Shown: piece by piece, positions 1,885-28,600 of the stretch | Numbering within the stretch: the first letter of the stretch is position 1 | Layout: the number at the start of each line of letters is the position of its first letter | Source: Lingula anatina | Lineage: Eukaryota > Animalia > Brachiopoda | Assembly (NCBI GenBank): GCA_051362555.1 | Contig: CM120641.1 | Coordinates: 9,982,001 to 10,046,000, forward strand | DNA: 64,000 nt | Direction of reading: 5' to 3' | Made by a program: the position numbers and the translations under genes | The notes under the pieces: generated by a model | Told to the model about the DNA's origin: nothing | The model's database searches: none | What the model saw: the letters and a program-made list of their open reading frames with translations, nothing else

Positions 1885-4671
1885 GACGCAATGGATAGAA
1901 TTTATGTTTATGAAATTTGGGTAGATTGAGTGTCGTTTCTTTATTATTCGCAAGTTGCCAGTTACAAATGTATGTAGTACGACAAATAGTTTAAGTAGTT
2001 AGTACGGTAGACCATTAACAATGTCGCATTATTTGGCACCTTCGGTTTTTTTCTCACAGTGGAGATGAGGTACAAACGCGCGATTGATGCAGAAACGACG
2101 TTTGTATAAAGCGTCCGTTACGTTTATATATTTCAACAAACAAACTAGCTCTTTCAAGAGAAGACACGATAAGAGAAGCCATTTGACAAATTAGCTGCTG
2201 CCACGGCAACTCTCAGCTCTTCAGGTCTGTAGTAGTAGGCTTGTGGTATGACAAGATCACTTCAATAACGCTCCCGGTTCCCTGACTGAAACCCATCAAG
2301 TGAAGAGGAGTCATGCCAAGTTAACGTCTTTATGTGATTGTTTCCAGTGATATGAAATGACGTGACATCTCTTTTTCTCTTGTCACTAATGAGATGTTGA
2401 TGGAACATTTTTTTTCAGACAGAAGTGAGGACCGGTGGTGAAGAGGCTGGACTGCGGGGTCATTACCTAGACGCTTCCGGCGCATTTCCCCTTTGTCAAG
2501 ATGACAAGTTATAATTATTTGTCATGCTCATGTCGTCTTTATTTTTTTCTGATCTTTAGATTTCATAATATGAAGTGCAGGTCGCGTGTTAAGGACGTCG
2601 GGGGGGGGGGGGGGTAATTTATTCAACATTCAACATTGAAGATTGGTTTGCTACAGGTTGGTTTGCAGTCATTGGGTCTATTCGATGTTATTTTTTCTTA
2701 CTTTGAGAACGTGATGACATGGCGTCGACCACCGCAAAATTTGATTTTTTTATGAGGACGAGGCAACGAAGGGTGTTGTGGAATAATATTAAGTTTCAAG
2801 GTGCAAAAATCTGTCACTCTTATATAGGTTGCCACCTTTTTGATGTTGGACTTCATTACTAATCGTGTTTTGGTTTTTAACAATCACGTTCGTTTGAAAG
2901 ACAGTGCAATTGACAAAACGGTTTTGTAGTATATACAAATATGACTGGCCCTCAAGTATGATGAAGCAAAAACTTTTGGTCACTATTTGTTTGGAGGGGA
3001 GAACAACATTAAATTTCAACCCCGCACCAACAGTCTCGCTGTTTGTTTTTTGCTGTCTTCACGCGCGGTGCCTCTCGTCTCCAAGCAGTGTAAGGACCCA
3101 GTATACAGGGCGGCGTGTTTCTCGCCCGGCCTTGAGTCGTGTGCTTGGCACTATGTCAGTTAACTGACAGTTTAGATACCATCCGACTGCCTAACGAGCC
3201 GAGAAGAACATTCAATCAACCTTGCTCGGCAGTCACTGTCATAAGCGAGGCTTTCAAACATTGCATATATATCTTCTGAGTCACCGGCAAAAGTGTAGTT
3301 TGGCGGGAGAGTGGGGTGGTTCTGTATTATTAACTACTGGCTTGTTGGTAGCTGAAATGAGCAGTGATGCGTATGACATTGTCCTGTATATCTTGTTCTC
3401 TCTGTAGAAAGTGGGTGCACAGTGAATTTGTTGATTGATCATTGGGTCTTGATTTGGAAATGGACGAAAATGAACGTGAAATATCTTGGAAGCAATTGGC
3501 CAGTAATCTTTGTTGAGATTGGATGTTTTGTCCTAGCTTGTCCATTTGGAGGGACCGCGTCTGCACTGCCTTTGGATGGACTCCAATCATGTCACGTTTC
3601 AAGAAACTGATGGACCCTTAAGACTGTCCCTAACGGTAAGAAAAGCCTCCCCTTGCGACTTTGGGGCCTTTAATTTTTCTTCCATTCATCTATAAGTTTC
3701 AGACAGATTCTCAATAAGTTTACAGGGTAGCCCGTCCACAAGGACTTCAAAACCAACACATATCTTGATGAAGGCAAATGAATCACTTCCCTAGGAGAAC
3801 ATTAACAGCGGCAAAAATGGCCATAGATGATGGATCACTAAAGCTCGGAAAATGGCGTCCCAAGTGACCCTTTTTTTTCAACATTTTCCGTTGTGGCAGC
3901 TTTTGGTGAAATTGCCCCTTTTGTAAGGGAATAGCTGTGAAATATACTGGTGTTTTGGAAAGTGTTTTGCTAGTAGCTGGGTGGTAGTATGTGTGCGTGG
4001 GAGGGAGGGTCGGAAATGGTCATCATTGTCATTGCTATGCATGTGAATGCAGCAAGTCGTATTTTACTATCTTTATACATTTATCAGCAAAATGCATTAA
4101 GTGACGATAACAGAAAAAAAAACTGTCGTCGCTCAAATGTTTTGGTGCACGAATTTTGTTTTTCATTACGGTTAAGTGCTTTTCAGAAGAGACAACGGTT
4201 GCATATCAATCGCGTTCGACAATATAGTTAATGATATTTGAAAGTCATTACAAAAGAAAATAAAGCTGGCGTCGTGTATCAGTAATGACTATTGTTTGTG
4301 GATGGGAAAACACATTATGTGATAGAAAAAGAAAACTGTACCCTTCTTTACTAAATACCATTTGTTACATGATAAACCTATCTGTTGACTTGCCAGTAAC
4401 AAGATATTCACGCAGGTCCTAATTTATGCAATCATGTTATCGGCGCTGCGTTGATAAAACAAATTGGTAACACGTTTAATGGCGCGTGGAAAATGAGTCG
4501 AAGCGATTGGTGTGGAGATTGTCAATGTTTGCGTGTGTTAGATGCAAAGTATTGGTAAATGTGAAAGTGTTCCAGTAATGATTTGCATAATAAGTGGCAT
4601 CCATTGCGCCTGCCTTGCTCTGCACGCACGCGGCTCCATGTGAACGTTACGTCATGTCATAGTGTTAGAGA
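200..4671 (+). ncRNA. putative structured non-coding primary/host transcript region upstream of mir-184
   Basis: No credible ORF. Visibly richer in GC and CpG than the rest of the window, with many local stems whose G-U pairs favour the + strand, the same strand as mir-184. Transcript boundaries cannot be determined. Confidence 0.45.
1795..1883. repeat. compound (TG)n/(AG)n microsatellite
   Basis: Direct reading. Confidence 0.95.
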
Positions 4672-7228: not shown

Positions 7229-9335
7229 CATGGCCGGATCAAGTCGTTAATTTGCCTGTGTCACTGCATTGGTGCACGTTGTCTTTACGTTCTCAATTAT
7301 TCCAACAGTAAGTGGTCTCATGACTCTTGGGATTCTAAAATTTGGATTTGTTTCCTTGCTCAAGATTTCTCTTCAATCAATATTCTAAATGAAATTACCC
7401 CTATAATGAGCAATATATGAATCAGTTTGTAAAATAGACGCAGTTACAAGCGTAAAATGCCCTTGTTTAAAACGATCTATATGTTGTATGTACCTCATCC
7501 TTTTTTTCCCATTTACGCCCTTTCGCAACTTTCACAACTTCAGGGTATGGTTTAAGTCAATCGAGTATCCTTTACCTTTATGGGAGACTAAGCGTGAACG
7601 CATATTTCTAAGTTTTTACAATTAAAATAATTTAGATGTTTTTTAACGTGGCATGTTAAGGTATGTAGTCAACGTAACGCTAACCAGGTCAAAACTCACT
7701 TAATTAAATAAATCGCCGACTTCCCGAATCGAATATGGAGAAAAATGACAATACCAAAGGCAATTTTTTAATTTGGTTTCGTGCCTGATCAAAAGTGCTT
7801 TAGCTTATTAAGCAAATTTCCGAAAAACCATAAACTGCTAAATGCCAGTAATCAATTTGACCAATGATGGAACTTTGGAAAGCGGACGATACCCAACGCC
7901 CTCATAAATTATTTTACTTCAAATCGTGGCATTTATTTAGATGGGGCCCTTGTAATAATACGTCGCAACGTAATGCATCCGTAGTTATGCCAGATCCAAG
8001 AAAAATAACCGCTTTTCAGACAGAAACAAAAGAAAAATAGTCGTTGTTAGCAGTGAAAATGCAGTTTTATATACTTCATCAAACGTGTTTCTGTAACCCT
8101 TACTCAACCGAGACAAATGAGAAGGCAACCAGACTGAGTTTGCAAATAACAAAACCCCGATTGTGTGTAGTGCCAAGCACAACTTGCCACCGCCTGAACT
8201 GAATTCATTTCTTATAAAATATTGCAGGCGAATATTATAATGCTCTGATTTTGGAAAGTTAGATACTTGCCATCTTGCACACGTTCAAATAAAATGAAAA
8301 ATATTAAAAAAAGAACAAAGTGGTTTTTGAAGGTAGTATTAGTACTGGTTAGCAAGAAAGCACTCTAAACTGGTTCTGAACATTATTGATTGAAATTCAG
8401 TGTTCCTACAAATTAAGCCGAAAGAAAGTTACATGTACCGGGAAATTGGTCTTCATTACATTTTAAAATCTCGAATGATAATTTATAACACTTGATAATC
8501 TACTCCGTTCATTCTTCATATAACGCACTCAAATCACGTGTTCAAAGAAGTAGATTTACCAAGCAAAAATTTGAACAAATTATCTTCGGCTGGCTACTAT
8601 CAAAAACATTCTCAAAGACAAATATCACCTTTTGACAACAATTAAATGACAATTCACCAATAACTATACAATAATGACGACAAGCTGGAGCTTACTTCGT
8701 GATTGATGAAATCCTTACCATTTAACAACACCTACAAACTTTTATTCTTTTCCGGAAACTTTATTCAAAATGTATCATCGCATAAAATTAACCAGGTGGG
8801 CTTTCAGCAAACTTTGTGTAACAATATAAATAAACTCCCTCATTTCAATGTTACAATATGCAACAAAATACGGAAACCCACAAAGATTTGGCATGACAAT
8901 TATGTATTTAAACCGTCTTCTCATAAGTAGTATTTACAAATGGTACTGATCAAATCCACATTTAATGATTATTACAACTAGCAAAAGAAGTAAGACTAAG
9001 GCATTGGCATAACCTACCAAAGTAACTACTTCATTTTAAATGAAGTGTTCCATCGTATCATTTAACGGTTCCTTTCTTGGAATTATCCTTAATTTTGGTT
9101 ATTATTCAAACATTCGTGCAGTCATGTCTTTCTTATAAAACACTAATTTTTCCAAATCAATTCTCATTGTTTCTCAAGTATGCTTCACCACATTTTAACA
9201 TTCTTTAATTTCCTTGACATGATATTGCCAAATTTCACAAAACATACACGTTTCCAGATATGCACTTAATAGAACAGCTTTCTACGAAACCATGGTTTCA
9301 GCCACTCTAGTCCGATCCAAACCAAGGAGTAGCAG

Positions 9336-12300
9336 CTACTTCTTCTTGCCAGTAAGTCCAGCTCCGGCGTTGAATTTGAAGTGAATGATGTCCCCATCTA
9401 GCACAACGTAATCTCGGCCCTTCTGGAGGTACTTTCCTGCAGCCTGAAAATACACTTGTTTTTACGATTTCTTCATATGAAAAAAAAAAAAAAAAAAAAA
9501 AAAAAATCAGGCGGAAAATGATGCATTTTGATAACTTCCTAATCCACAAAACAGGTTGCTTAAAAATTAGACAGGCAGTACAGCAAAAGAGAAAAATGAT
9601 AAAGTTCTCGTTGTGTGAGTTTTTTAAAATGTTTATTTTTTTATTGTTATCATTATTAATTTATTTACTTTTTTCATCTTTTCTTTTGCATCTCCTTTGT
9701 GAATTGATTCAGATAGCCTACCCATGAGAAAATTTAAATCGTAACAGCTTTAGCCCTTTAAGTCACTATAATACAGTGACAAGAAAAGCCAAGCTAATAT
9801 CTCTGGTCTAGACAGAAACCCGTCCTAATTCTATTAATTTCCTATTTCAAATTATTTCTAGCTTTATTGTTGTAATGAAGCAGGGGCCTGTAACATGCCT
9901 TGCTGTATTTTTGAAAAAGACATAAAATGTGCCAATAATGCCAATAAATTGCCAATAGACAATTTTTTTCCAATTTTTCATTTCCTTAACCCAATTACTT
10001 ACATTAAATAGTGTATCCAGACATTTTTTCTGTACACTAAATCCACTTCATCAGTACACTTTAAACCTTTTAATATCCTTTGTTTGACAAATATTTCACA
10101 ATAATTTTTGTTGTCAATAATGAAAAAAGGGTTATATTATATTCCTCTCCTTAATACATGAATAATATGGTAAAATTGTCTAATAATTTCCTTTGCTGTA
10201 TGTTCAAAGCACTATTTTTTACTTTTTTTGATAAATAGCATGCCATTTGTAGCTTGACAAGCAATTTGCAGTGGAGCAGTTAGTAAATGTGTTTGGTCTT
10301 GTAATACTTTCTCCTTTCAAACTATTTAGCCTCAGCACAATAGTTTTCAATTTTTAAAGAAATTTTTTTTTTTTTGAAACAACTGCAAAATATACAATAC
10401 TTCACTCATTATTTGGGTAGATACAGTAAACATGTTTATTGGATGAAAGGAAATTATCTCACAACTGAAACCTCCAAAGCATCCATTCACATAAAAACTT
10501 AATTTTGATATTTATTTAATCATGCCATGCCTTCAGAGAAATATATGCATCCACAATTAGAAAATTCCACTTAAAGAGTTCAGAGGAGGCCAAATTTCAA
10601 AGAATTTTCTTTCCTGTTTTTATTTTTTGCCAAACCATGTCCTGACTACATGAGATTTTCCTTTGAGGTTGGCCCGTTTTAGAAGATGAGGTGTCAAGCA
10701 GGCACACCTGCTGTCGGAGTTACGTGATGTGACACCACTCGTTCATGCCAGGAAAAACAAACGACAGACATTGTGCCTTCCTTACTGTGCAAATTAAACA
10801 ATTTCACATACATTGTAAAGCTAGCAAAAATGTTGAATTTTCAATTTAGTTACTCAAGGTGAAATACACCAGAACTTCAGTTACAGAAATGTATTATTTT
10901 TTTCTTTGATTATTCATCTAAAAACTGAAATAATTCATTATACTGTAACTAACAGAATAAATAGCAACAGACAGAACAAGACTAAAAGTACGGGGATATT
11001 TTGGGAACCTTTTGACATTAATCAAGTAACTTATTGTAACAGTATCACATAATTAAGCACACTAAACCTCAAATTCAAGTACCTCATCAGAGATAAATCC
11101 ATCAGCATATTTAGTGAATCTCATACAAGTATATCATTACTGTTAAAATACATGAAGTTAACTTATCAAGAATATATAACAAGGATGTCCCTAAATAGTA
11201 AAAGAATAGTGCCCTGGCACGCAGCTTATTTTATATCTTGGGTTTACCCTTTCTTCAAGTCTGTGTTAAACAATATGCAATGTATTTCGTAAAATCATCA
11301 ACTAGATTCAGAGCAAGCTGAACCCTACCTTGACTGCATTTTCACTGCCCAATTCCTTGAAATCATCAAATTTCATCACCTCAGCCATGATGAAGCCTTT
11401 TTCAAAGTCAGTGTGAATTTTTCCAGCCGCCTGAGGTGCCTTGGTGCCTTTCTGAAAGCATGAAAATTTCTTAAGATAAGTTTGTGTATTTAATACATCA
11501 TCTCATCACAAATGGAATTTTCGAATATCAATTCATCAATTCAGCATTCTTGACATTTCAGTAACCAGTGATTTCATGTCAATCAAATTGGGAATACACA
11601 ATAAACATTAAAAATTTTTAAGTAATAAGGATGTTAAAATTTAAATAATAATAATAATAATAAAGGTAAAATCAAACAATCATCAAAAAGAGTAACATTT
11701 TTACACAACTAATTCAACAAAAACAGTTTTAAATGAAAAAAAAAAAATTTGCATTACATAATGTGTGCATGCGTGTGTGTGTGTGTGTGTGAGCACACCT
11801 GCGTACACGTCTGCATTAAAAATTTTGCTAGAAAATGAGCTGAGGACTTTACTCAGTCTTCAACTTTTAGAGCTTATAATATTATTTTAATTTTTTTCCA
11901 TTTTATTTTCACACTAAATACAAAAAGAAAATTAAAATAAGAAAAAACATGCCACTGGAATTTCCCAGCAGTTGGAACTGTGCATGTCCAGTAATCATTA
12001 ACTTTAGATTTTTGAAGTGTTAGACAAATATCTGTCACCACAAGACAAGTGTTAACTATGCTATTGCATGCAAGGACCATAAAACTTCTCTTCATATTGA
12101 CAGTGCCTGAAACGCATCTCTTACATAAATTTTAAGTTTTTATTACATGGTGTTTATCACTATTATATAATAACTTGCATGTAACTGACTAAATCTGTGC
12201 ATTAATATTTGTCGTAAATCTGTGCATTAATTATGTTCGTATCCCTCGTTGATAAATGTAGTTTTCACCAAATGGTACCAATGCCCTTGCAAGAGAATTC

Positions 12301-12439
12301 TAGTATGGTAATGGCAAAATAAGGAGTTTCCCTGTAAATTCTGTGGGGGTCATAAATTTCCAATCTTCAAAGTGTTTTCATTTTCTAAAGTGTCTACACA
12401 CAAACAATGCATGCACCCCCCCCAGCCCCCCCCCCCCCC

Positions 12440-12475
<36 letters not shown>

Positions 12476-15400
12476 GAATAAATAAAATAAAATAAAATAC
12501 ACAGAACAATAACTGCTGTATTTTCCTTTCCAGAAAGTGTATTCACTGTATTTTCTAAAACCTAAACAGTATACAAATGCATCAAAGTATACTAACATAA
12601 ACTTTTAAAGGCATGTTTAATAAGAAAAAAAAAAAACCACTGCACTGTACATAATCCACCTTTGCACAGCTACAGTACATTTGCTCGGATTGACTGCAGG
12701 CTTGTGGATGGCTGTGTGATTACAACAACTTCTCAACCCCATTTTAATTTTCAATATTTGTCTGTATGTGCACTTTTAGAGATGCCCAGCAACTGTAGAA
12801 TAACTCCTCAGTGGAAAGGGAGAAATGAAACGTGACTGCTAGAAATTATGTTTTTTTAGGTTGACTGCATATTATCATCACAATGTCAGTTAGAATTTAT
12901 CATGTCGTGGTTTAGCAGGGTTTTTTTTGTGTTTTCTTTTCTCTTTAGAAGAATTACAGAGCAACTGGTTGGAGGTTAGCGAACTGACATACAAGGTAGT
13001 ACAACTGGCCGACCTTTGCTACCCACATAAGTATAATTTCAATAGCACTTGGGAAATGAAATGAGTTTTAAGAGATCAAATTTTTGTGACTTTTCTTTAA
13101 GGTTTTAGAATATTTTCTTCCTACTGTTCATGTTAACTATACCTACCAGTTGGTGAAATTAGGTACCATACACTAAACCTTTTATTTCCTAATAATTTTT
13201 ACTGCCATGTTGAAATGATATGCATACATCTAAGACTCAACGATGATATCTAGCTGAAACATGTTAAACACTTATAATTTGTTTATTTTAATAATCAACA
13301 TGCCTTTCCTGAATTTTTTACAGAAATGCATTCCTTATGGCTAAAGAATTAAAACTAGCTTGGTTGCTACTTTCAAGACGAAATTTTCAATATGGCTGCA
13401 AATTTGTGAGGGGAAAAAACAGCCAGAAGCAACATATATACTGTATTTTTTATTCTAGAGATGTATTCCTTGTTGAAAGAACACATTAGGATAACTGACT
13501 ATACCCTATCAGGATCCAGTTATTAAAAAATCAAAATGGCTGCCAAAACATACAGCATAGGATAAAGAAGAGCTGCAAAATCAGTATATTTCCGGTATTG
13601 TCTAATTAAAATCATATATGAATTAAAATTTTTCTGTCCATTGTGGTATTTTGATCCTAAACTATCTCTATCAGCTTGTTTGACATTCAACTTATGTTTG
13701 GTGAAGTTGTAAGCCCCCTGAGTAGTCCAGTTGCCATTCCCAAGGGTCCCAGTGTTGAACTATGAAATGCTATTTTCTATGAGTAAAAGAATCATAATTT
13801 AGGGTTTAAAAAGTCAACTTAGCCTGGGTTTTCTTTTCAGATGCTACTTTCAGGACATTGAGCACTTTTCAAAATCACAGATGGCCACCAGGTCTTTTTT
13901 AGTTGAACAAACATAATTTACCAGCTTTTTGCCTGCCTTTTCCTTACCATTTTGGTGGCCATTTGTTTTGTTTTTTTTAAATACAATTTGTTGAGATGTA
14001 ACAAACAACTGCAACATGCACCTCTTTACTCAAAAATGCACACGTAACAAACTGTTGGCCATCTTAGATTATGCAAAATGCTCAGTGTCCTGGAAGTAGC
14101 AACTATTTTCTTTTTTCCCATGGTGGCCATATTGAAAAATGCTCAATGCTTCAGAAGTAGCAACTAAGCTAATTTTACTTCTCTAGCTCCAAAGAAGGCA
14201 TTTCTGTAAAAAAAGTTTACAGGACAAATCATTGCAGGGTGCAAAAATTAGGCCTATGAGATTGGCAACTAACTATAAGATTAGAAGATGCAAAAGATAT
14301 TTAATTTTGATCATTAAGCAGAGAAAGGGGTTAGCATGCTTCCAAGGTCAAGATTACAAGTGCAAAATTTACATATCTAAACATAAATACTACTGTTTTG
14401 CGAATGTTTTTTCTGAAGGATCAACCTGACAGCTAAGCTCCTTTGAAGTTGAACTATTGGTCTCATCCTGTCACTTTTCAGCAGCATTTTACTCACCTCT
14501 GTTCAACTTGCCCTTGACCCTCTCTTCTTAATCATTCCAATCTTTCTTATCTCTTGACCCTTACCGTGGTCCCCATCACTCCAAGTCTTTGTCAACAACA
14601 AGAGTTGGGAATAACATGTTGTTGAACAATAAGTTACTTCAAAGTGAATGAAATGTTAGAAAAATTTTGAAATGCTCAAGCCTGGTTCAAAAGTTACCAT
14701 TCTCAGGCCTCCTAGAAATCATCAGTGGACCCACTGCTCAGACGGTGAGTTCAGCAATTCAAATCCAGTACCAAGATAAATGTACATCTGGTGACATATT
14801 TCTGCACAGTTGTGTATACAACTAGCGTAACGTGACCCAAGTGATCGGCCAAAGAACAGAACTCACCTGAATGGTCCATGCTTTAACTTCATCCTCCCCA
14901 GCGGTGAAATAATACATCAACTGCAGTGCACTGTATCCAGTTAGAATTATCTTAGACAACATACTGCAAGCACACCATAATTTGAGAGTGAAAATAGTGA
15001 AAACGATTTCATAACAAAAGTTAAAAAGCTGAATGTTATAAATTGAAACACAAATTGCAATCAGCAGCTATTAGGAATCCAGGCAGAAATATCAGTTCCA
15101 TTAATAATTATGTGACATTTTACACCTCAATGTAATTTTCAAATGTTTAAAAAAAAGTTAATGGACTACTTTGAGCAATTTTTTTTAAATACTGCCAAAG
15201 GTTTAATAGATACTGTTTTAAAATTTGTTGAAACATGGAAGAATTAAAAATGAAACTGACTTTTCAATGGAAACATCAGCTATGGACAAAAAAGGAAAAA
15301 GAAATGCAGAAAAGCATTGAAAGTAAATAATTAAAAGCAGGCACTGCAAAGGCAAGACAGAACAGTAGTGCTATGACTGCTGTTCTAAGATTTGCATGTT

Positions 15401-18400
15401 CTTTATTAAACGTACTTTCCAATTGCAAAAAAAAGCCAATAACATTTTCAGTACTGCCTTAAACAATGGTTTTTGTTTTATTATTCGAAATTAGAACATG
15501 TCAGCGATTGAGCCCAGCACTACCATTGTCAGCGTTAATCAAAGGGGCCAGTTGTAAAAAAAAACTGGACCCTCCTTGACCGCTGGTCTGACCTGTACTG
15601 TCCAGGCTTTCACTTCATCTTCACCAACTGTGAAAAAATAGTGCAGTTGTAGAGCCTTGTATCCAGTCACTATAATCTTGGACAGAGCACTGAAATGTTG
15701 CATAGCAAATGTAAACTGCGGTTCCCGGTTTCATTTGGATTTAAAATTGCTATAGAAAAACAAAAGTCAAGATTAGTATTGGTTCAATCAGTGATGGAAA
15801 TAATCAAAATCTCAACAATAATCTTGACTGAGATAACCCATCCAGTTTCAGATACCTATGTGAAATTATATCAAATGCACACACATATTTTTAATGTTAC
15901 AAAAGGCATACATACACAAAAAATATGTGCTTGTATCAGTTCAACAATACACATTTTCTTTTAACCATTAAGCTTAAATAATCCAATTCGTTATCCCAAA
16001 TGTTTGTGGCACAATATAACATGCTATCAAAAAGCCAGACACATTAAAACAAGAACAATGTCCAGACTTGTAGAACCTGTCACAGGCTGCATTGGCCTAG
16101 GTATTCAAAATGTTAAAAGATTAAGTTTAAGAAGAAAAAGATTAATTACATTATCATAGAATTGCCTGACTGCAGGTAAAAATATATATTTATTATGCAC
16201 CTGGTGATTTTGTTCTCCTTTTCATAAGTCTCTCTCTCTTCTGGTGACATGTCCATTAATTTCAGCTCCAGAGACCCACTGAATGGGATGACACTGGCAC
16301 CAGGGTCATTGGCATCTACCCATTCCTTTATTTTCACCAGCCTAGAAAAAGAGGAGGTATTGTGGATGTCATGTGAACAAAAAAATTTCATAAATTCATG
16401 CTAAACTATGATAGTTATCTGTTAACAAGATGAAACATGATAAATCCTTGGTAAAATTGAAATAGATAGATTGTTTTAAAAATAAATAAATAAATAAATA
16501 AATAAGCAAACAAACAAACAAGCAAACAAACAAACAAAATAATTACATACTACAAAATATAACAAATATTACCTTTTAAAATATTCTATATAATGGATGC
16601 ACTTCTCCAAAATAAATTTTGTCTCTGTATCAATGTTAAAAACTTTCTTACTTTATCATAATCAAAGGCATGAGCATTTTCCAAAACTAAGAATAAAAAG
16701 ATATACTCACATAAAATTTCACTTACACCAGATTAGTGTGTTCACTTACCACTTGTTCTTTTTTCTGATAAAATCTTTTTCTGAGAGATTAATTAGATAA
16801 ATCATTGGCTTCAGGGTTAAGAAGAAGTGCTGGTTTATATATTCAATCTGTAAAAAAAAAAATAAATGAAATAAAATAAAAATATTTTTAAAAAAGTTGA
16901 CGTAGAATCTAGAAGTCACACAAAATAATGTAAATTGCTTAGTTTTATATTTTCCTTTACAAAATAGAAAAGTAATTTATACTAAATGCAAGTAAGATAG
17001 AAGTCAAAATTTTTGAAAATGTAATGCAATTTAATGTCAACTGCCAGTGGTGCCAGAAAAGTTTGTTTTGGGTTGAGTTGGAGGGGGTGGTTGGGAGTGG
17101 TTGGGTGGGTGGGTGGGGGTGTTGTGGGTTTGTGTTCCTGAATTCTTACACCCCATTTCCATAGATTTTTAGATCGATCTATCCCTGTGGGGAGTCTCAC
17201 TAGATTACTGTCAGCTTGGCCAGCTTAAGCATCTGTCCCGCCTACTAAAAGCTGTAAGTGGGTAATTAACCATGGTGCCCGCTCGGCTGACTGCAATTTA
17301 GCGTGAACCCCCAGGGAGTTAGGTCGATCTAAAACTTAATCTTTAGATCGATCTAAATCTCTGGGAAAGCACCCTTAGAGGAGCCAAGTTGTTTTATCGA
17401 AATGCGCTTCTCCTAAACTAACTAAAAATCAATCACCCTTACCTCTTTTGCATCATACACAGCAGCTTTTCTCAAATGCTTCTTTTCTTCTACAAGAAGT
17501 CTTTTTAACTTGCAAAAGAAATCCTAGAATCATAATAATGAGTTGTTGTTCGATATGTGTAATCCAACGAATGTGATAACAAAAGTTTTCATTTATAATG
17601 GCTGCTAAATAATGATTTAATCGAGATATACCAAAGACTTTATATGTCATTGTTTATGTAAGTAGAATGGCACACCTATCCAAAGTTTTAGTACAACTTA
17701 CATATTCAGGTTTCTTCTTCTTGTCATTTCCTCGAACTGCCAATTTTTCTAAAGATTCAAGCTGTTTCAAAATATAGTCTTCATCTTTGAGTCGCAATTC
17801 CTCCATGATGATGTCAAGGTCACGTACAGGGTCCACATCACCTTCCACATGGGTAACATCTTCATCTTCAAACACTCCTGAAAAAAAAGAGAAGTTTTTG
17901 ACAAATCTCACAAACTATTTTTGACAATTTCATTTAGTAAGCATAGTAATGATGGAAATTACTTACCTTAAATAATAGTACAATTTGCACAGTATGTCCA
18001 ATATATTTCCTCATAACACTCTAGCTCTGCTGTATATTCATTAATGATAATGTCTATTACAAAACACTCTGCACTAGGCACGTTTAAAATAAATAATGCA
18101 TCAAAAAGGGACTTTTTGGACTCTGTTAATGAAACAATAATGGGATTACAAAAATGAATCATGCAAGGTGTGTCATTTGACAGCAAATTATGTAGGTACA
18201 TAGTAGAACAGAACAGACAACTCACTGGCCATGTAGAACAGCGCATCGCAAGCACGGATGTGTGAAAGGAAGGCATTTCCAAGACCCTGACCTTCACTTG
18301 CACCCTTCACAAGACCAGCAATATCCACAACATTCAGAAATGCTGGGACCTTACTGAAAATAAATAATCAAACATCAGTGATATATCTGACAACCAGAAA

Positions 18401-19876
18401 AACCAATACTTTTTTAAAGTATTTTTTTGTCTCAAACAAAGAAGGAATTTGCTTTACTTGCTGTGATAAACTTACCTTGCTGGTTTAAAGAAATTGCACA
18501 AGAAATCATATCTTTCATCTGGTACAGGAACCCGACCTAAAATATTTTGCATGAATAAACATTTAACATTGCTTGGTGTCCAGAATCATCTCTTCATAAG
18601 ACCAAATAAAGTTATTGTGAAAACTATAGTTGAAAAAAAAATTATCACCTTCCTCTACCCTTAAAATTATCACATACCAAAATGAATTTTCTCTCTATAT
18701 ATATGTACATTTACAAAATGCAAAATTAACAAAACAAATGACTGGATAATAGTTAATATCTTTATCCATAGACACCTAACTGACTGTTAGATGGAATTTC
18801 TGTAAATGGTCTGTTCATAATGACTTACTTTCATTTGGGTCAATGGTGCAGAATGGAAAATTTTCAGCTGATGCCTGGCTTTTTGTTAAGACATTGAAAA
18901 ATGTTGATTTTCTAAAAGTAAAATAGGAGATTTATCTCATTTTCTGTGACTTAGGTAAACACCAATACATACTGACTCATTATTTCATGTCAGCATATTA
19001 ACATATATACAAATACATTTACATCTAACAGCACTTGTAACATACAAATATATTAGAAAAGTTTTTCAGTCTTATCTAAATAAGATCAACGTGCTATATA
19101 TAACCCCCAGTCTTTTATGTCAAACATCATTTGAATAATTATGCTACTCTGTGTGCAGCAGTAATGCATCATGAATTATGTCAAATTTACAGCTTTTACG
19201 AACTGAAGGCACAGTTAAGAAGGTCTAGTTTACTATCAGAAATATGAAGAAAGTGCACATTAATTTTTTTCTGACTGATTGCGTGATTAATTTATCCTTT
19301 GACATGTGAGTTTATTTGAGTTGTGTTAGAAACTGGTGGTAGTGATTTAAATGCCTTACAGGGAATCTATGTTTACTTCATATGTAACTTTAGGTGAATG
19401 GATAAATTAATGTCAATTTGAAGAATAGTATTGTCTAGACATATCAGGTTTTAACTGGTGGCAAATACCCTTCTAAAGACCCACATTTTTAAATCTGTCT
19501 ATTGCTCTTAAAATTTTTATATATTTCTAATAAGATTGAGTTTTTAGTAGTGTTAATTTTAAATGGTTCGATGAGTGTTTTAGATCCAAATATTGTAGTA
19601 ATTTTAATGATTGTAGTTATATTATCAAATGTAAGGCGCCTTGAGGTAGTATGTGAGGTACCATATAAGAAAGTTCAAACTTATTATTATTATATTAGTG
19701 TTACCCATTAGTCCTCAGCACATTGCAAAAAGTGAAAATGCTAGGTGAAGGAGAAATAAGATAATTTCTTACCCAACATTAGGCAATCCTACAATACCAC
19801 ATTTCAAGTTGGTTCCCACTCTGCCAATGAGGACTGGGGGCTTCTCCTCTGCCTCTCCCTTCTTCTTCGGAGGCAT
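9336..19876 (-). CDS. OLA1: Obg-like ATPase 1 (YchF/OLA1 family), multi-exon
   Basis: Coding exons: 19876-19773 (MPPKKKG...GIVGLPNVG), 18911-18829 ([20 protein letters not shown]), 18536-18476, 18353-18226 ([26 protein letters not shown]), 17877-17702, 17523-17443, 16847-16750, 16341-16201, [15689-15593 or 14963-14867], 11451-11329 ([24 protein letters not shown]), 9443-9336 ([13 protein letters not shown]). All introns are GT-AG with compatible phases. Confidence 0.97.
13380..14280. repeat. degenerate interspersed repeat built of AAAATGGCNGCC-like modules in an OLA1 intron
   Basis: Recurrent CAAAATGGCTGCC/GGTGGCCAT(T/A)TT motifs in both orientations and a duplicated AATGCTCA...GAAGTAGCAACTA unit (14078-14105, 14138-14166). 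Confidence 0.55.
14867..14963 (-). CDS. OLA1: OLA1 mutually exclusive exon, copy b (97 nt)
   Basis: tgcag|T ATG TTG...ATT CAG|gtgagt encodes (S)[32 protein letters not shown]; same length and phases as copy a. Confidence 0.9.
15593..15689 (-). CDS. OLA1: OLA1 mutually exclusive exon, copy a (97 nt)
   Basis: ttcag|T GCT CTG...GTA CAG|gtcaga encodes (S)[32 protein letters not shown]. Confidence 0.9.
17149..17374. mobile_element. fold-back MITE (TAGATCGATCTA family), copy 1
   Basis: Subterminal inverted repeats TTCCATAGATT..TAGATCGATCTA / TAGATCGATCTA..ATCTCTGGGAA, with TTA on both flanks. Homologous to the copies at ~49828 and ~50246. Confidence 0.8.
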
Positions 19877-19938
19877 ACTAAATACAAATGTTTATTACAA
19901 GATTTAATTATATCAATAATCGGAAAGTTGACTCTGAT

Positions 19939-19953
19939 AGCATGAGTGTTCAC

Positions 19954-19988
<35 letters not shown>

Positions 19989-20000
19989 ATGAGTGTTCAC

Positions 20001-22698: not shown

Positions 22699-25600
22699 TC
22701 ACTGAAGGGTTTGGATCAGTTCAACCAATTCTACAGCCAGTTCATATTCAGAGTGCCCTTCTGGAAGTTGATTTATAATGTGACCAATCAAAGAAGCTGT
22801 ATCATGCAGAGGTATGTCAACCTGCCGTAGAGTACTCGAGTCCTGCAAGAAACAAAAATTCACACAGTGAAAGAATTAACCAACCAAAGTCATTTAGTCT
22901 AAATATCAGCTTCAATAGCAGAAAAAGTAGTATAAATGATACAAAACTCATATCACAGTTATGGCAAAAATGTTGACCAGTGTTGACAAAATACACTTTA
23001 ATCTTATCTATACTAATAATACCAAGTAAACAAACAGTTTATTTACATATGTCTTGGATTCTATCAAGCTTAACATAACCTGTCTCTAACCTGTGTTTTT
23101 AACCAAGTGGATAATCTTGGTGAAAGTTTTGAAAGTCTCTCAGCACTTGTCTCAGGCTCTCCACCCAATACAAAGTGAGCCAAGCGCTGCCCTGCCACAA
23201 GTAACAGCTGACTACCCATGATCTCATGGTCTGTCACTGTCAATAAGGCCTAGTGAGGAGAATAAAAGAATTTTGCTATTGTTACCATTATCATTGCTAG
23301 GTGGTTATTTCAAAACACACACAGGGAATACAAGAATGATAAAAACTTAAGATGCCTACTATTTTAAAACTAGCAGCTGTTACCTCAGACTGAGAGTTTT
23401 GCTTCCTGTAATTGCATTCTATCAGTAAGTCTATTTCCAATAGATGCAATGGTCATCAAAAACAAGAAAGTGTTACACATTAAATTTTCATCTCTGCTTT
23501 ACACAATACTAATGGATTTAAAAGATATCAAAGAGTGTGAAAGCAAAGTTCATTTGGACATCCAAATAGATTTCTAAAATCACCTCTTCTGCCAGCTTGT
23601 CATACCCACTGGAGTACAGTTCACAAGTGTACTGTCTCCTCAGGACATCAGCATCAATACAGAAGTCATCTGATATTGCACACAGCCGCAAGCACCATGT
23701 TTTGGCACAGGAACACCTCTCAGTGTCTGCAGGATCTGTGATCATCTGGATTGCCTGGCTGATCACACGCACGGCAAACTGACATAAAAAAATGGATGAA
23801 ATCTATTAAACACACGACTAACACAACTTGATGAACAGAAAATTATTTGTACATCAATTTTGATGAACTATTAAAAACAATGCAAAAAGATGTGTGCACC
23901 TGAAGATAAAAGTATTTTGTCCATTTGAAACAATGCTCCCCTGACTCCTCTACTTCCTTGAAAACAGATTCAGACTCGGACTGATAATGATGATGACAAA
24001 GATGCAGTCCATTGAAGGGACAGAAACAGTTTATTTTGGCCAAAAAATGGATTTTCCTGGGGTAAATGATGATTTTCCCATACTTATCAGTGGTTAATGA
24101 ATCCATTCCGACATTCAAAGTTAGTCAGTGTTCTTTTTCGAAAAAGTGTTTTGTAATAATCTTTTTAGGAGGTATAGCCATCTATGAAGGTCCACATGGT
24201 CTGATGGCAAGCACAGATTCCAAAATAATTGTGATAACCCCCGTTTTGCCAGTAAAATGGATTTTATTATATTTCATTGAGTTGTTAACTATGTTTTTAT
24301 TGTGAATTATGAATCTCGTAAGGACAGTTGTTATCCCTTTAAGCACAATATTTAAAGCTATACTAACCTGTTCTCTGTTTCTCAATATTACCATGTCAAC
24401 AGCATCCATTTTGATGTAGGGGTGAGAGGTCAAATCACAGAAGAATGCATTCTGTCCCTGTGGTATATAAAAAATACAGATTACACATGCAACCCAAGCT
24501 CTAAAAAGAAAGCACAAGCAAAGAAGCACAAGTGTTTAATAACATATTCTATTACTTGAATGTCGATCACAAAAATGCAACGGCAGTGGAAAAAAAAGTA
24601 CAAAATCCAGATAATAAATCACTGGCAGCCAGTCAGATGTGTTATTTAAAATACCTTTGTATCAAACAAGGACAGAGGCTTCACAGACTTCATACTGAAG
24701 GTCATCACAGCCTGCATAACAATACAGAGATGTAGGTGGTGCTTTAGTAGCAGGTAGTTTGTGTTGCGCTGGTCAATAGCAAGCTCGGCCAGAGAGCTGC
24801 TACTTCTTCCCACTCCCTGCCACAAGTCCTCCAAATTTAATATTGGCATTTCGCCATAGTCACAGTTTGCCTGAATTGAAGAAAAAAAAAGTCTTAAAGA
24901 TTTAGTATCAGTTAACCATTAACCTGGCACCACAATCAATGTAAGCAGTGATGGCCTGAAATAGAGACAGCAGGTCTCATATTTTAAATAATTAGTTATT
25001 TCACTATAATCACATTCTGAGACAAGGAAGCAACAGATCTATCAGGATTTTAGCAAGCACACAGATATGATAACAGACAAAATATATTTTAATTCCTATA
25101 TAGGAAAAGCATAGACCCGCAAGTTGTGTGTTTTTGTCTTAACATATTTTATTAAGTTGACCATCAAATAATCATTAATTTGGGTCATTTTTCTCTTAAT
25201 TTATTAATCAATAAATACATTCTTATAAATCCAAATCCAGTGTCTTACCTGCATCATAATTTCTATGAAGTCACGGATGTTTGCCAGAAATCCTGTAAGT
25301 GCCAAATCACTTATTCCAACCTCCTAAATAAAAGATAAAGAGAAAAAAAAACTGATGTATGCTTGGTAGACAATGAATCAAAAACCCAAAAAATGATTAA
25401 TTACTTAAATCACATTATTGTGTTAATTTGAAATTTGAACAATTCACAAATTAATAAATTTGCTTGAATAGTATTTAAAATGTAGAAACTACAGACTTAC
25501 TTTTCTACATAATCTCTCCTTTGGGACTTTTCCAACCTAATAAAAATAAATAAATAAATAAACACACACACACAAACACACATTACATATACCTATAGTG

Positions 25601-28600
25601 TTGTTATGAAAAGATTCTGCAGACAAAAATTTACCCTTTGTTAAGTTTTGTGATATAACATAATATTCTGCTGTTCAGCAAATGTCACAGATATAATCAA
25701 CGTAAAAAAATTTATAAGAGAATCTCAGTTTTAAACTATAAATTGTTTCTTATAAATATTCAGCAACATTATTTTTACCTTTTCTATTAGTTTAGCAGCA
25801 GCTTGGAGCTTCTTCAAGAAAAACATCTGCCACATCAAACTGCAAATTCCTAGAAATGATTGCCAAGACAATACATGTCATTCCACATTTCTGTCTCTAT
25901 GAAACAAAAGCCCAACCCTTAATACTACACATCAGAAAAAAATGCTTTTTATCTTGTTGCTTAAAGTATAATGGCCAAATGCACACAAACCCATGGTTTA
26001 AACATCAATTTTCTTTCCCAATTGACAAAACAACCTTTAAAATAACTTACCATGCTGCAACACTCCATTTTGAACAAGTTTTAAAAAGTCCAGGGAATGC
26101 CTTAATTTGGACACAACCTTCAAATAGAAGAGTAGCAATTCACAGTCTCTTAAAAGAGCTAATGTGATTTTTTTCAAGCAACAAAACTTATTTCTCTAGA
26201 GTGTAATGAAAATCAACAAAATTATCATACTCTGTGGCCAATGAAATGAAATGAATTACTCAGTTCCTGGTAATTATGTGCAAAAACATTTGTACAGTAT
26301 CTATTACTGAGGGGTGTTATTTGCAATGAGATTTATCTGACTAGCAAAATTCCCACCTCCGGGTCTTTGTTCCACCTTACTCCATACTCCCAGGCACAGT
26401 TAGCATACAACACATCCTGCTCCAGGCTGTGGGGAAACCTGATATGTAATGAATGTAAGAGATCTGGAAATGAATGACAGAAGTGAAAATATTACTGACA
26501 AATATCGGCTACTCGCAAAGCACAGGCTAAAAGTATTACAGAAAACTGAGTGCCTGGTTCTTTCATTCTTACTATACTATCTGGTAATGTTCAAAGTTTT
26601 CCACTTCAATGTTCTTTATAAAAAAGATGGTTTAAGTTTTAGTTTTGAGCCAAGTATATGTAAATTGAATTAAATTGTAAATTGAATTTTATTTAAAGAA
26701 ATCTGTGCCCACTTCAAAGCTGTATCATACATGCACTAAATCCATGCAAAAACTTTTTTTCACCTATATTTATAAATTTCTATTTCAGCTATTTAATTCA
26801 TTGTAAAGATAATTGATACAAAATAGATAAGACAACTTTTTGTCCCCAATTCCAGACACCCATCTTACCCGTCATATCTTTAATATCAGTTTCTAGATGG
26901 CTGCTGGTTTCAGGAGACTTGGGGCATGTTATGGAAGAATCACTACCATCACTCGATGTTCTGATGACATATGGTAGGAAAGGTTTGGTTCCTATGTCCC
27001 TTGCAGAAGCCCATTTGGCAATGATTTCTGCTATAATTCCTTAAAATTTAGAAACTATGATAGTCAGTCAAAGAGATAAAAGAAAAGTCTTGCAAATTAC
27101 TCCTCTGACTGTATGAAGATATTTTATACATGTAAATTATGGGATATCTGGTCTCCAATATAAGATTTGTTCTCGAAAATCCTGGCATAAATACACGATT
27201 TTACTTATTGGAAGAGGCTCTTTTCTTTTAAATAACAAATGGGTAGTTTCCTTTAAAACATCAACTAACTTTTCAACATAGCCATATTAACTCACCTCTG
27301 CCTCCCTCTAGCACCTTGTTCACAGACACCTCTATATCAGCTGACTTGGTCACATGACTTGTGTCGTCTGCTTCCTTCCACCTAAGCAAGCACTCCAGAA
27401 GAAGTAGATCTTCCAGCTGCTGGACAAGAATGTTCCATTTCTCATTTTCTAATGTAACTGCCTCCCATTCGGACATGTCAGTGTCTTCAGCTGCAGCTTT
27501 TTCATCCTGAGAAATGTTATTTTTGAATCTAACTTAAAGTTGCATATACAGCTTGATAAGTTTACCTAACAAGGGTAAACTTTCTCAAAGATTTTCTTTT
27601 CAAATTAATTGCTTGGAAAATTTTCTTACTGTTCTAGTAATATCTAATTTATTGACAAATGTTGTTGATTAAAAGTAAAGCTCTAAAATACACGTAAGAT
27701 TTCAAATACATCTCAATATTCTAATATCTAAGAAGAACACAAACCTTGTTTTTTCTGTATAAATACATAACACTCAAACTGACACTTCTACAAGTTTGCG
27801 CCAACATAAGTGAAGGACCAATATGGCTGGATGAACTGCATGCCGCACGGATCTTCTCCCACCAGGGGGCAGTGCGATTAGTCTCTGCTACCACCTCTTC
27901 CAGGTCTGAAAAGAATTGAAATTTAAATAAACTGGCATCATATGCAAAAGGAAAGTCATATTTAATGCTTTTTTCTTTATACAATGAAGTTAAAAATCTT
28001 GAAAATTTTGAAAATCTAATATTTATTTATTTATTTTAATCTTTGCCTCTCTCTCTACCTTTTCTCTCTGTGAATGCTTTTACCAAGCCATAGAGCCTCT
28101 CCATACAAGCTGTGGGCTGGAAGGTTTCTGACAACCAGTGGTTCCATAATAGTGACTGATGAGAAAAAAGGGGTTACAAGGTAGTATGCTGGGATTTATT
28201 CAGACTCTTAAATGACATACTGTTATAAAAAGATAATTGTTGATCAATGAGTGGCAACTACAGATGTTTGCTCAGTTTGTCATTACACAAATTAGAAAAT
28301 TCTAAGAAACATAACCTATTGGTATACTTGATACATAACAGAATATGGACATACTTTAGATTTGATTAAAAAAATCAAATTCTTTAGCTTACCATTACTT
28401 GTTCTGGTAAAATTTTGGACATCAATTTAATATCCATAACATCTTCAACTTCACAGTTTCCATTAAGACAGGTCTTAAACAAAAAGGAACCTAAAGAAAA
28501 AATACGGTACTATTCCTAATGTAATTTCCTGGAAATAGTTAATCTTGCTCACAGATCATATCCAAGTAAAATTTCAAAATCTCAAGCTAATGGATTTTCA

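What the first reader, a model, noticed from the sequence alone, without database searches (positions are those of the whole stretch)
15511..15608. 5' splice site of OLA1 exon copy a also lies in a long hairpin, so both alternative exons share a donor-masking design
Seen (- strand RNA): the intron starts with a strong stem, GGUCAAGG/CUUUGAUU, GGG/CCC, CCAGUU/AACUGG, closed by CAGCG/CGCUG. The helix can extend over the donor (GUCAG/CUGAC) and exon end (UAC/GUA, AGCCUGG/CUGGGCU). The G-U pairs fit the transcribed strand. CAGCG and the donor GUCAG compete for the same CUG, and a second CGCUGACA copy lies just downstream (+ strand 15499-15506), so alternative registers could expose or hide the donor. 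Inference: both duplicated exons are controlled by independent donor-occluding stems with different sequences, unlike the usual single docking-site/selector scheme.
Basis: partly seen in the sequence, partly recalled or inferred. Interest (0 to 1): 0.7.

Follow-up and report, generated by a model that had tools for sequence, protein, structure and literature searches.

The report
Hairpin beside Lingula OLA1 alternative exon
In the brachiopod Lingula, the gene for the ribosome-associated ATPase OLA1 has a duplicated exon whose two copies are spliced one at a time and in different proportions between samples; the RNA just behind the first copy is predicted to fold into a stable hairpin that likely dampens that copy, while decay of mis-spliced transcripts, not the hairpins, likely keeps the two copies exclusive.

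Summary
The helices are there as written. The gene is Lingula anatina OLA1. Two 97-nt exon copies are spliced mutually exclusively: 95 junction reads for a, 148 for b, and no a+b or skip-both joint listed; one run used only b. The intronic core stem behind exon a is a real outlier (z -3.6 to -5.0, pairing probability about 1 in 5 of 5 contexts). Its extension over the exon end and donor is only modestly above chance (p about 0.02). Opening the U1 site is predicted to cost no more than at several ordinary donors. The second CGCUGACA copy is never used in the model. The better rival partner for the masking arm is an unnoticed element at 15379-15357. Exon b has a 9-bp helix over its donor, but its whole fold is not significant. 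Two independent stems cannot create exclusivity by themselves. Both wrong products carry premature stops, so decay can. No close relative could be aligned, so covariation is untested. Verdict: a likely ratio-tuning hairpin of a known kind, in an exon pair I did not find described in print.

The parts
15593..15689 (-). OLA1 alternative exon a, 97 nt, residues 291-323, weak donor CAG|GTCAGA
   Evidence: Joints 16201-15689 (36 reads) and 15593-11451 (59 reads). The a-only model equals NCBI protein P0003 with 0 mismatches.
14867..14963 (-). OLA1 alternative exon b, 97 nt, strong donor CAG|GTGAGT; 69 of 97 nt identical to exon a; 7 amino-acid differences
   Evidence: Joints 16201-14963 (75 reads) and 14867-11451 (73 reads).
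15538..15581 (-). Core intronic stem-loop (+12 to +55 of the intron after exon a)
   Evidence: -19.4 kcal/mol, z -3.65 alone; z -4.98 with the CAGCG closure. Pair probability 0.99-1.0 in 5 of 5 contexts. Its 5' arm is single-copy in the window.
15588..15608 (-). D: end of exon a plus donor GUCAG, the predicted masked segment
   Evidence: Donor G+1 pairs with arm S at probability 0.03-0.67, depending on context.
15511..15534 (-). S: 3' arm that pairs with D (first CGCUGACA copy at 15527-15534)
   Evidence: Duplex -22.6 kcal/mol, 5 of 200 shuffles; 23 of 1000 flank shuffles.
15581..15585 (-). CAGCG, rival partner of CGCUG; closes the core and displaces the donor from CUGAC
   Evidence: Probability 0.40-0.97. 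Closure alone is at chance level, 389 of 1000.
15499..15506 (-). Second CGCUGACA copy; present but predicted not to be used
   Evidence: Probability 0.00 in 5 of 5 contexts. Forced ensemble -79.7 against -82.9 for the local register.
15357..15379 (-). R: downstream element complementary to all 20 nt of 15530-15511 (13-bp ungapped core 15373-15361); also folds into its own hairpin; candidate release element
   Evidence: -23.8 kcal/mol, 1 of 300 shuffles with S fixed; strongest ungapped helix in 16340-14300, but 18 of 150 shuffled introns hold one as strong. Probability 0.21-0.63. Own hairpin z -2.64.
14722..14882 (-). Exon b donor structure: perfect 9-bp helix 14867-14859 / 14752-14744 plus exon-end pairing
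   Evidence: Duplex -23.8, 4 of 200 shuffles; 9 bp reached by 13 of 2000 shuffles and by 2 of the other 69 donors. Whole fold z -1.53 and -0.17.
14344..14361 (-). Weak candidate downstream docking site (CTTGACC), complementary to GGTCAAG in the hairpin 5' arm (15581) and behind exon b (14559, 14519)
   Evidence: 11, 42 and 163 of 300 shuffles give such a triple in 600, 1000 and 3400 nt of the intron.
16201..16341 (-). Upstream constitutive exon, weak donor CAG|GTGCAT
11329..11451 (-). Downstream constitutive exon

Best explanation
Lingula OLA1 has a tandem pair of 97-nt exons that are spliced one at a time; the intron behind the first copy is predicted to fold into a stable stem-loop whose loose base likely dampens that copy's weak donor and so tunes the a:b ratio, while exclusivity is likely enforced by frameshift-triggered decay together with cell-type splicing factors. 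Shown: the exons, their exclusive and sample-dependent use, the premature stops in both wrong products, and the complementary segments. Predicted: the core stem always forms; its base flips between near-equal registers (donor:S, CAGCG:CGCUG, S:R), so exon a's donor is only partly hidden. Inferred: during transcription arm S is complete about 80 nt after the donor and delays U1 binding. Element R, about 150 nt further on, or a protein or helicase, can take S away. Where that release is inefficient, the strong-donor exon b wins, as in run X1. Exon b's 9-bp donor helix would temper b so that a can compete.
For: Exclusive use: 95 a and 148 b junction reads in 4 of 4 runs laid, no a-b or skip-both joint listed; X1 0 a / 84 b, other runs 95 a / 64 b, Fisher p 1e-24. 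Premature stops: a+b at 14954, 208 nt before the last junction; skip-both at 11378, 47 nt before it. In C. elegans 14 of 19 non-3n clusters depend at least partly on NMD (PMC4165533 passages). The core stem is an outlier. In the -16..+82 window exon a has z -4.57; the other 17 donors run from -1.76 to +1.72 (the window was chosen for a). Donor a is weak and donor b strong (U1 duplex -6.9 against -12.2; score 7.7 against 12.4). The first 100 intron bases behind a and b are the most G+C-rich of 23 donors (0.49, 0.42). 0 of 10 coding variants seen in the reads fall in the 194 nt of a and b, P 0.015. S:R duplex 1 of 300 shuffles.
Against: All structure evidence is computed from one genome; no probing, no covariation. 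U1-site opening energy is ordinary (8 of 40 shuffles; 4 of 16 constitutive donors cost more). 3 of 21 constitutive donors have equally significant duplexes. 6 of 313 windows in the gene reach z below -3. In the model S:R does not free the donor: G+1 stays 90-100% paired, partly with 15358-15336, a duplex that is itself at chance level (82 of 300). S was one of 11 segments scanned, and over 2.3 kb the best of 12 shuffles matched S:R. The only other animal locus with two copies, L005, has no significant donor fold (z 0.58 and -0.11; 17 and 69 of 200). NMD was not tested; the skip-both stop lies only 47 nt before the last junction.
Confidence: 0.5

Rival explanations
1. The hairpin is incidental. 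It forms but does not affect splicing; proteins binding the G+C-rich intron starts and the exons set the ratio, and decay removes wrong products.
For: Ordinary U1-site opening energy. 3 of 21 constitutive donors match the duplex significance. No significant fold at either donor of L005. Exon a is the majority form in 3 of 4 runs.
Against: The core is the 2nd most stable of 313 windows and begins 12 nt from a regulated weak donor. The a and b duplexes rank 1 and 2 of 70 in energy. The transcribed strand folds 12 kcal/mol better.
Confidence: 0.22
2. A competing-pair network locks exclusivity, as in ATE1 or downstream docking-site clusters: the hairpin's 5' arm (GGUCAAG) and its twins behind exon b compete for a docking site at 14361-14344, or exon b's 3' arm masks either donor.
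For: GGTCAAG lies behind both exons, and its complement occurs once on the window's minus strand, behind the cluster; 11 of 300 shuffles for the first 600 nt. Exon b's 3' arm can pair with donor a at -21.8.
Against: The triple is at 42 and 163 of 300 shuffles in longer stretches. The 5' arm is locked in the core stem at probability about 1. Donor a with the b intron is at chance level (30 of 300; 57 of 300 for the donor alone). No upstream docking triple was found.
Confidence: 0.12
3. One reading: two independent donor-occluding stems are the main control of both exons, with the two CGCUGACA copies switching exon a's donor on and off.
For: Both donors have above-chance complements (5 and 4 of 200), and the arms are unrelated in sequence.
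Against: The second copy is unused in 5 of 5 contexts. Independent stems predict both-in and both-out products, and none was listed. The whole b fold is not significant.
Confidence: 0.08
4. The hairpin is a 3'-tailed mirtron: after exon a is spliced, the intron's first 66 nt fold from the very first G and are diced to a small RNA.
For: GUCAG at +1 can pair with CUGAC at +61 to +65, giving a hairpin of pre-miRNA size, z -4.77. 3'-tailed mirtrons begin at the splice donor (PMC4556696 passages).
Against: On its own the intron start prefers the CAGCG register and leaves 7 nt unpaired at the 5' end. The donor register has a 6x4 internal loop. No Rfam match here. The exon-end pairing would be unexplained. 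No small-RNA data were available.
Confidence: 0.04
5. The stem is an editing-complementary structure that guides ADAR to adenosines at the end of exon a, as at the glutamate-receptor R/G site (recalled, not from a call).
For: The helix spans the exon-intron border and includes exonic adenosines.
Against: No other letter was listed anywhere in exon a or b in 4 of 4 runs at a 1% threshold with at least 3 reads; depth was only tens of reads. The exonic helices are short (7, 2 and 3 bp).
Confidence: 0.03

Closest known systems
Stem-loops over a 5' splice site: MAPT (tau) exon 10 and SMN2 exon 7 (PMC7404189, passages)
   Same: A helix covers a weak donor and limits U1 binding. In SMN2 a long-distance pairing about 300 nt downstream also occludes the donor.
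   Different: Those are single cassette exons with probing and mutant data. Here there is a duplicated exon pair, a stronger intronic core with a loose base, and only computed evidence.
Human ATE1 exons 7a/7b, R1R3 against R3R4 (PMC7797038, passages and section 15)
   Same: Two tandem mutually exclusive exons; one element has two rival partners, one of which covers a splice site.
   Different: ATE1 masks 3' splice sites, and one shared element serves both exons and enforces exclusivity. Here the rival pairs (D:S, S:R) concern exon a's donor only, and no significant shared element was found.
Drosophila PGRP-LC competing pairings (PMC6191721, abstract and outline)
   Same: Competing RNA pairs include masking of a 5' splice site.
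   Different: It is a 3' variable region with a docking site, not an internal two-exon cluster.
Docking-site/selector clusters: Dscam, 14-3-3zeta, Mhc, MRP1 (PMC6071210, abstract and introduction; PMC8791459 passages)
   Same: Tandem duplicated exons; a weak candidate downstream docking triple exists here.
   Different: No conserved docking site could be shown, the arms behind a and b are not homologous, and the strong helices are local.
Non-3n mutually exclusive exons policed by NMD in C. elegans and FGFR2 IIIb/IIIc (PMC4165533 passages; cited in PMC7797038)
   Same: Homologous exons of 3n+1 length, an intron of several hundred bases between them, and premature stops in both wrong products.
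   Different: NMD dependence is untested in Lingula.

Membership tests
Tandem-duplicated mutually exclusive exons | Two adjacent homologous exons of equal length and phase with intact splice sites | tested here: met
   97 nt each, AG/GT ends, 69 of 97 nt identical.
Tandem-duplicated mutually exclusive exons | Each is spliced alone between the same flanking exons; no double or zero inclusion in mRNA | tested here: met
   Four joints found; no a-b or skip-both joint listed in 4 of 4 runs, listing needs 3 reads at 2 starts.
NMD-policed mutually exclusive exons | Exon length not a multiple of 3; wrong products carry premature stops | tested here: met
   Stops at 14954 and 11378.
NMD-policed mutually exclusive exons | Wrong products accumulate when NMD is blocked | not testable with these tools
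   Needs an experiment.
Donor-masking regulatory stem-loop (tau exon 10 / SMN2 type) | A predicted helix covers the U1 site more stably than chance | tested here: inconclusive
   Duplex 5 of 200 and 23 of 1000, but opening energy 8 of 40.
Donor-masking regulatory stem-loop (tau exon 10 / SMN2 type) | Conservation with compensatory changes | not testable with these tools
   No alignable relative: no genome held; the 100 metagenome loci are distant animals, other eukaryotes and bacteria. L005 lacks a significant fold.
Donor-masking regulatory stem-loop (tau exon 10 / SMN2 type) | Disruption changes inclusion and compensatory mutation restores it | not testable with these tools
   Needs a minigene.
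Docking-site/selector system | One site complementary to a selector beside each alternative exon, above chance | tested here: inconclusive
   One 7-mer triple; 11, 42 and 163 of 300 shuffles by stretch length; no upstream triple.
Docking-site/selector system | The selector is free to pair with the docking site | tested here: not met
   The candidate selector is paired in the core stem at 0.99-1.0 in 5 of 5 contexts, none of which reached the candidate docking site. The long-range duplex is -15.8 against -19.4 to -25.8 for the local stem.
Steric or U2/U12 exclusivity | Very short intervening intron, or mixed spliceosome types | tested here: not met
   629-nt intron with GT-AG ends. The branch point of exon b was not mapped.
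3'-tailed mirtron | Hairpin starts at the donor G with a short 3' overhang | tested here: inconclusive
   The centroid pairs +1 to +4; the minimum-energy fold leaves 7 nt unpaired.
3'-tailed mirtron | Diced small-RNA reads | not tested

The most novel reading that the evidence does not exclude
An old exon duplication in the universally conserved ribosome-associated ATPase OLA1 is steered from the donors alone: each copy's 5' splice site is held in its own stem, and exon a is switched on when a release element about 150 nt downstream captures the masking arm. This would be a transcription-timed donor toggle with no shared docking site, giving cell-type isoforms that differ at the junction of the ATPase and TGS domains.
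Probability: 0.2. Interest if true: 0.6.

Novelty: new member of a known kind. Interest (0 to 1): 0.36.

Why it matters
OLA1/YchF is conserved from bacteria to humans and acts on stalled ribosomes, possibly through its TGS domain (PMC11814078 passages). I found no report of mutually exclusive exons in it. Here 7 residues at the start of the TGS region are swapped in a sample-dependent way. If the hairpin and its release element prove functional, this compact 250-nt module is a testable case of donor-side structural control in a lophotrochozoan, outside the fly and human genes in the papers read. If not, the result is a newly documented isoform pair with an incidental hairpin.

Tried and rejected
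No whole genome is held, so repeat status of the hairpin was tested in the window only: 1 match at up to 3 mismatches. No RNA holder was listed by index; the runs came by species label, and 4 of 9 were laid, 6-30% of each. Rfam gave 2 weak matches in 9000-20000, none at the hairpin. The second CGCUGACA register was rejected. Homology of the a and b intron arms was rejected (174 of 300 shuffles as good), although both hold a CAACTG stem. Exon a pairing with the b intron (15640-15625 with about 14812-14797; 0 of 300) was picked from an all-against-all list, so its p-value is not valid; it is kept as a lead. Conservation: only 1 of 100 loci held (L005) has two copies; 15 of 48 loci with the intron-bounded exon show both neighbours and one copy. 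Among 238 of 253 proteins carrying the motif, only the Lingula pair clearly differs as isoforms. Trees of 51 exons could not tell whether the L005 and Lingula duplications are shared; protein and DNA trees disagreed. One search had three upstream exon starts off by one base; the protein models were redone. In one search the two forced S:R rows were off-register and are not used. The 12 RAB3GAP2 control donors were picked by eye and not confirmed by reads. For one search, loci were dropped if they lacked an AG before the exon, had under 200 nt of intron, held N, had no intron or were duplicates; 47 donors remained. Paper searches returned 0. Earlier scan notes held nothing relevant. No supplements were read; MetazExp (PMC8728262, search listing only) may list this splicing event.

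Full report
What the locus is. The finding lies in a minus-strand gene running from 19876 to about 9336. Its upstream constitutive exon is 100% identical to Lingula anatina Obg-like ATPase 1. Joining the exons with exon a (15689-15593) gives NCBI's 399-residue protein with 0 mismatches. Exon b (14963-14867) gives a 399-residue protein with 7 differences: A292M, V298L, K302S, H307M, F309Y, V312A, V322I. The exon covers residues 291-323 and so straddles the start of the C-terminal YchF domain at 306; human OLA1 (2ohf) aligns end to end. NCBI's isoforms X1 and X2 use exon a; X3 uses exon b and reads on into the intron. The copies share 69 of 97 nt, and 14 of the 25 codons with the same residue differ silently. 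They are about as far apart as either is from other animals, so the duplication is inferred to be old.

The exons are mutually exclusive. Reads from 4 of the 9 runs listed give four joints: upstream to a 0/10/14/12, upstream to b 48/2/12/13, a to downstream 0/16/18/25 and b to downstream 36/11/11/15. No a-to-b or skip-both joint was listed; listing needs 3 reads at 2 starts. Run X1 used only b (0 against 84); the other three were mixed (95 against 64; p 1e-24). The tissues are coded and unknown. Of 10 coding variants in the reads, 9 silent, none falls in the 194 nt of a and b, against 10 in 369 nt of constitutive exons (P 0.015). That hints at constraint on these exons but does not single out structure.

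The observation. The core stem at 15581-15538 is the solid part: z -3.65 alone and -4.98 with the CAGCG closure; 2nd most stable and 3rd by z of 313 windows over the gene; pair probability 0.99-1.0 in 5 of 5 contexts. The transcribed strand folds at -41.7 against -29.5 for the other. The base is loose. Pairing of the donor G with CUGAC ranges from 0.03 to 0.67 and CAGCG/CGCUG from 0.40 to 0.97. Given the core, the extension over the exon end is matched by 23 of 1000 flank shuffles and the CAGCG closure alone by 389 of 1000.

Is the donor unusually hidden? Two tests disagree in part. The duplex between the donor region and the next 200 nt is -22.6 for a (5 of 200 shuffles) and -23.8 for b (4 of 200), the two most stable of 70 donors. 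But 3 of 21 constitutive Lingula donors and 1 of 47 orthologous donors also reach 5 of 200 or better. The high absolute values partly reflect G+C content, which is highest behind a and b among 23 donors. The cost of opening the U1 site is 6.0 for a and 5.8 for b, reached by 8 and 15 of 40 shuffles, and 4 of the 16 constitutive donors computed cost more than a. Masking is therefore plausible but mild, which fits exon a being the majority form in 3 of 4 runs.

Which register competes? Not the second CGCUGACA: its pairing probability is 0.00 in 5 of 5 contexts. A scan of 11 splice-site segments against 16340-14000 found that the masking arm S pairs best with 15379-15357, called R here. All 20 nt of 15530-15511 pair, at -23.8, 1 of 300 shuffles of the a-b intron. 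Its 13-bp core is the strongest ungapped helix in 16340-14300, although 18 of 150 shuffled introns hold one as strong somewhere, and over 2.3 kb the best of 12 shuffles matched it. S:R has probability 0.21-0.63 in the 4 contexts that include R, and R can also fold on itself. Against a simple release model, the freed donor then pairs with 15358-15336 in the computed ensemble and G+1 stays 90-100% paired; that duplex is at chance level (82 of 300).

Exon b. Its donor is covered by a perfect 9-bp helix with 14752-14744, reached by 13 of 2000 shuffles and by 2 of the other 69 donors. The whole fold is not significant (z -1.53 and -0.17).

What makes the exons exclusive? Two independent stems act on each exon separately and so allow both-in and both-out products (inference). 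Steric hindrance between close sites is unlikely with a 629-nt GT-AG intron. The exons are 3n+1: double inclusion stops at 14954, 208 nt before the last junction, and skipping both stops at 11378, 47 nt before it. In C. elegans 14 of 19 such clusters rely at least partly on NMD (PMC4165533, passages). A classical docking site is only a weak lead: GGTCAAG behind both exons and its complement at 14352-14346 give 11, 42 and 163 of 300 shuffles by stretch length, and the would-be selector is locked in the core stem.

Evolution. A pattern scan of metagenome contigs gave 101 stretches, of which 100 loci were held. Only L005, an unnamed animal contig, has two copies, again with a weaker donor first and GTGAGT second. 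Neither donor folds above chance. 15 of 48 loci with the intron-bounded exon show both neighbours and a single copy. No isoform pair outside Lingula was clear among 238 of 253 proteins. Whether the L005 duplication is shared is unresolved.

Comparison. It works like the stem-loops over the donors of tau exon 10 and SMN2 exon 7 (PMC7404189, passages). It resembles ATE1 in having an element with two rival partners, but ATE1 hides acceptors with one shared element (PMC7797038, passages and section 15). Donor masking within competing pairs is known from PGRP-LC (PMC6191721, abstract and outline), and a hairpin modulates chicken beta-tropomyosin exon 6B (PMC9198270, passages). Docking-site systems are described in PMC6071210 (abstract, introduction and start of methods), PMC8791459 (passages) and PMC9013439 (passages, no mention of OLA1). 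Searches for OLA1 with mutually exclusive exons gave 0 papers; the listings showed none on this event.

Verdict. Observation confirmed; interpretation partly supported. The exon pair is real, and I did not find it in print. The hairpin most likely tunes the weak first exon (0.5) and may be incidental (0.22). It is unlikely to be the exclusivity mechanism alone. New member of a known kind; interest 0.36.

Noticed in passing
window 15765-15829 (-): A second hairpin (z -3.04) in the intron before exon a pairs a branch-point-like TACTAAT and the start of a pyrimidine tract that precede an AG near 15750, about 60 nt before the real acceptor; no joint to that AG was listed. It may hide a decoy acceptor or exon a's branch point.
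   Followed up: partly
window 16216-16193 with 16093-16071 (-): The weak donor of the upstream constitutive exon, which must choose between a and b, also has an above-chance complement (-19.1, 3 of 200 shuffles).
   Followed up: partly
window 15640-15625 with 14812-14797 (-): The middle of exon a can form 15 of 16 pairs with the intron behind exon b; found post hoc.
   Followed up: partly
window 15586-15579 with 14905-14898, and 15582-15572 with 14856-14846 (-): The hairpin's 5' arm is also complementary to 8 nt of exon b and to 11 nt just behind exon b's donor; the energies are within what a 2-kb region gives by chance.
   Followed up: no
window 15358-15336 (-): This stretch looks like a 3' splice site (pyrimidines, then GCAG|TGCC, similar to exon a's start) but is followed by a stop; no joint was listed. 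It is also the predicted alternative partner of exon a's donor.
   Followed up: partly
L005:855-953 and 2403-2501 (-): An unnamed animal contig carries two intact tandem copies of the same OLA1 exon, weaker donor first and GTGAGT second, suggesting a shared or repeated duplication.
   Followed up: yes
window 14866-14822 (-): NCBI isoform X3 (P0021) reads through exon b's donor to a stop after 14 codons and has N where the window has T near the exon end. It may be a modelling artefact or a retained intron.
   Followed up: partly
window 17161-17365: Nested inverted repeats (49-nt and 24-nt arms) give the strongest fold in the gene; they look like a non-autonomous DNA transposon in an OLA1 intron.
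   Followed up: no
window about 22700-28000 (-): The upstream neighbour on the same strand is a RAB3GAP2 gene (PF14656 in 3 of 4 pieces tested), ending about 2.8 kb before the OLA1 start.
   Followed up: partly
window 9000-16600: Runs X7 and X9 are mostly 95-99% alike to the window with many fixed differences, unlike X1 and X4, suggesting a distinct population or cryptic species under the same label. Their DNA would suit a covariation test.
   Followed up: no
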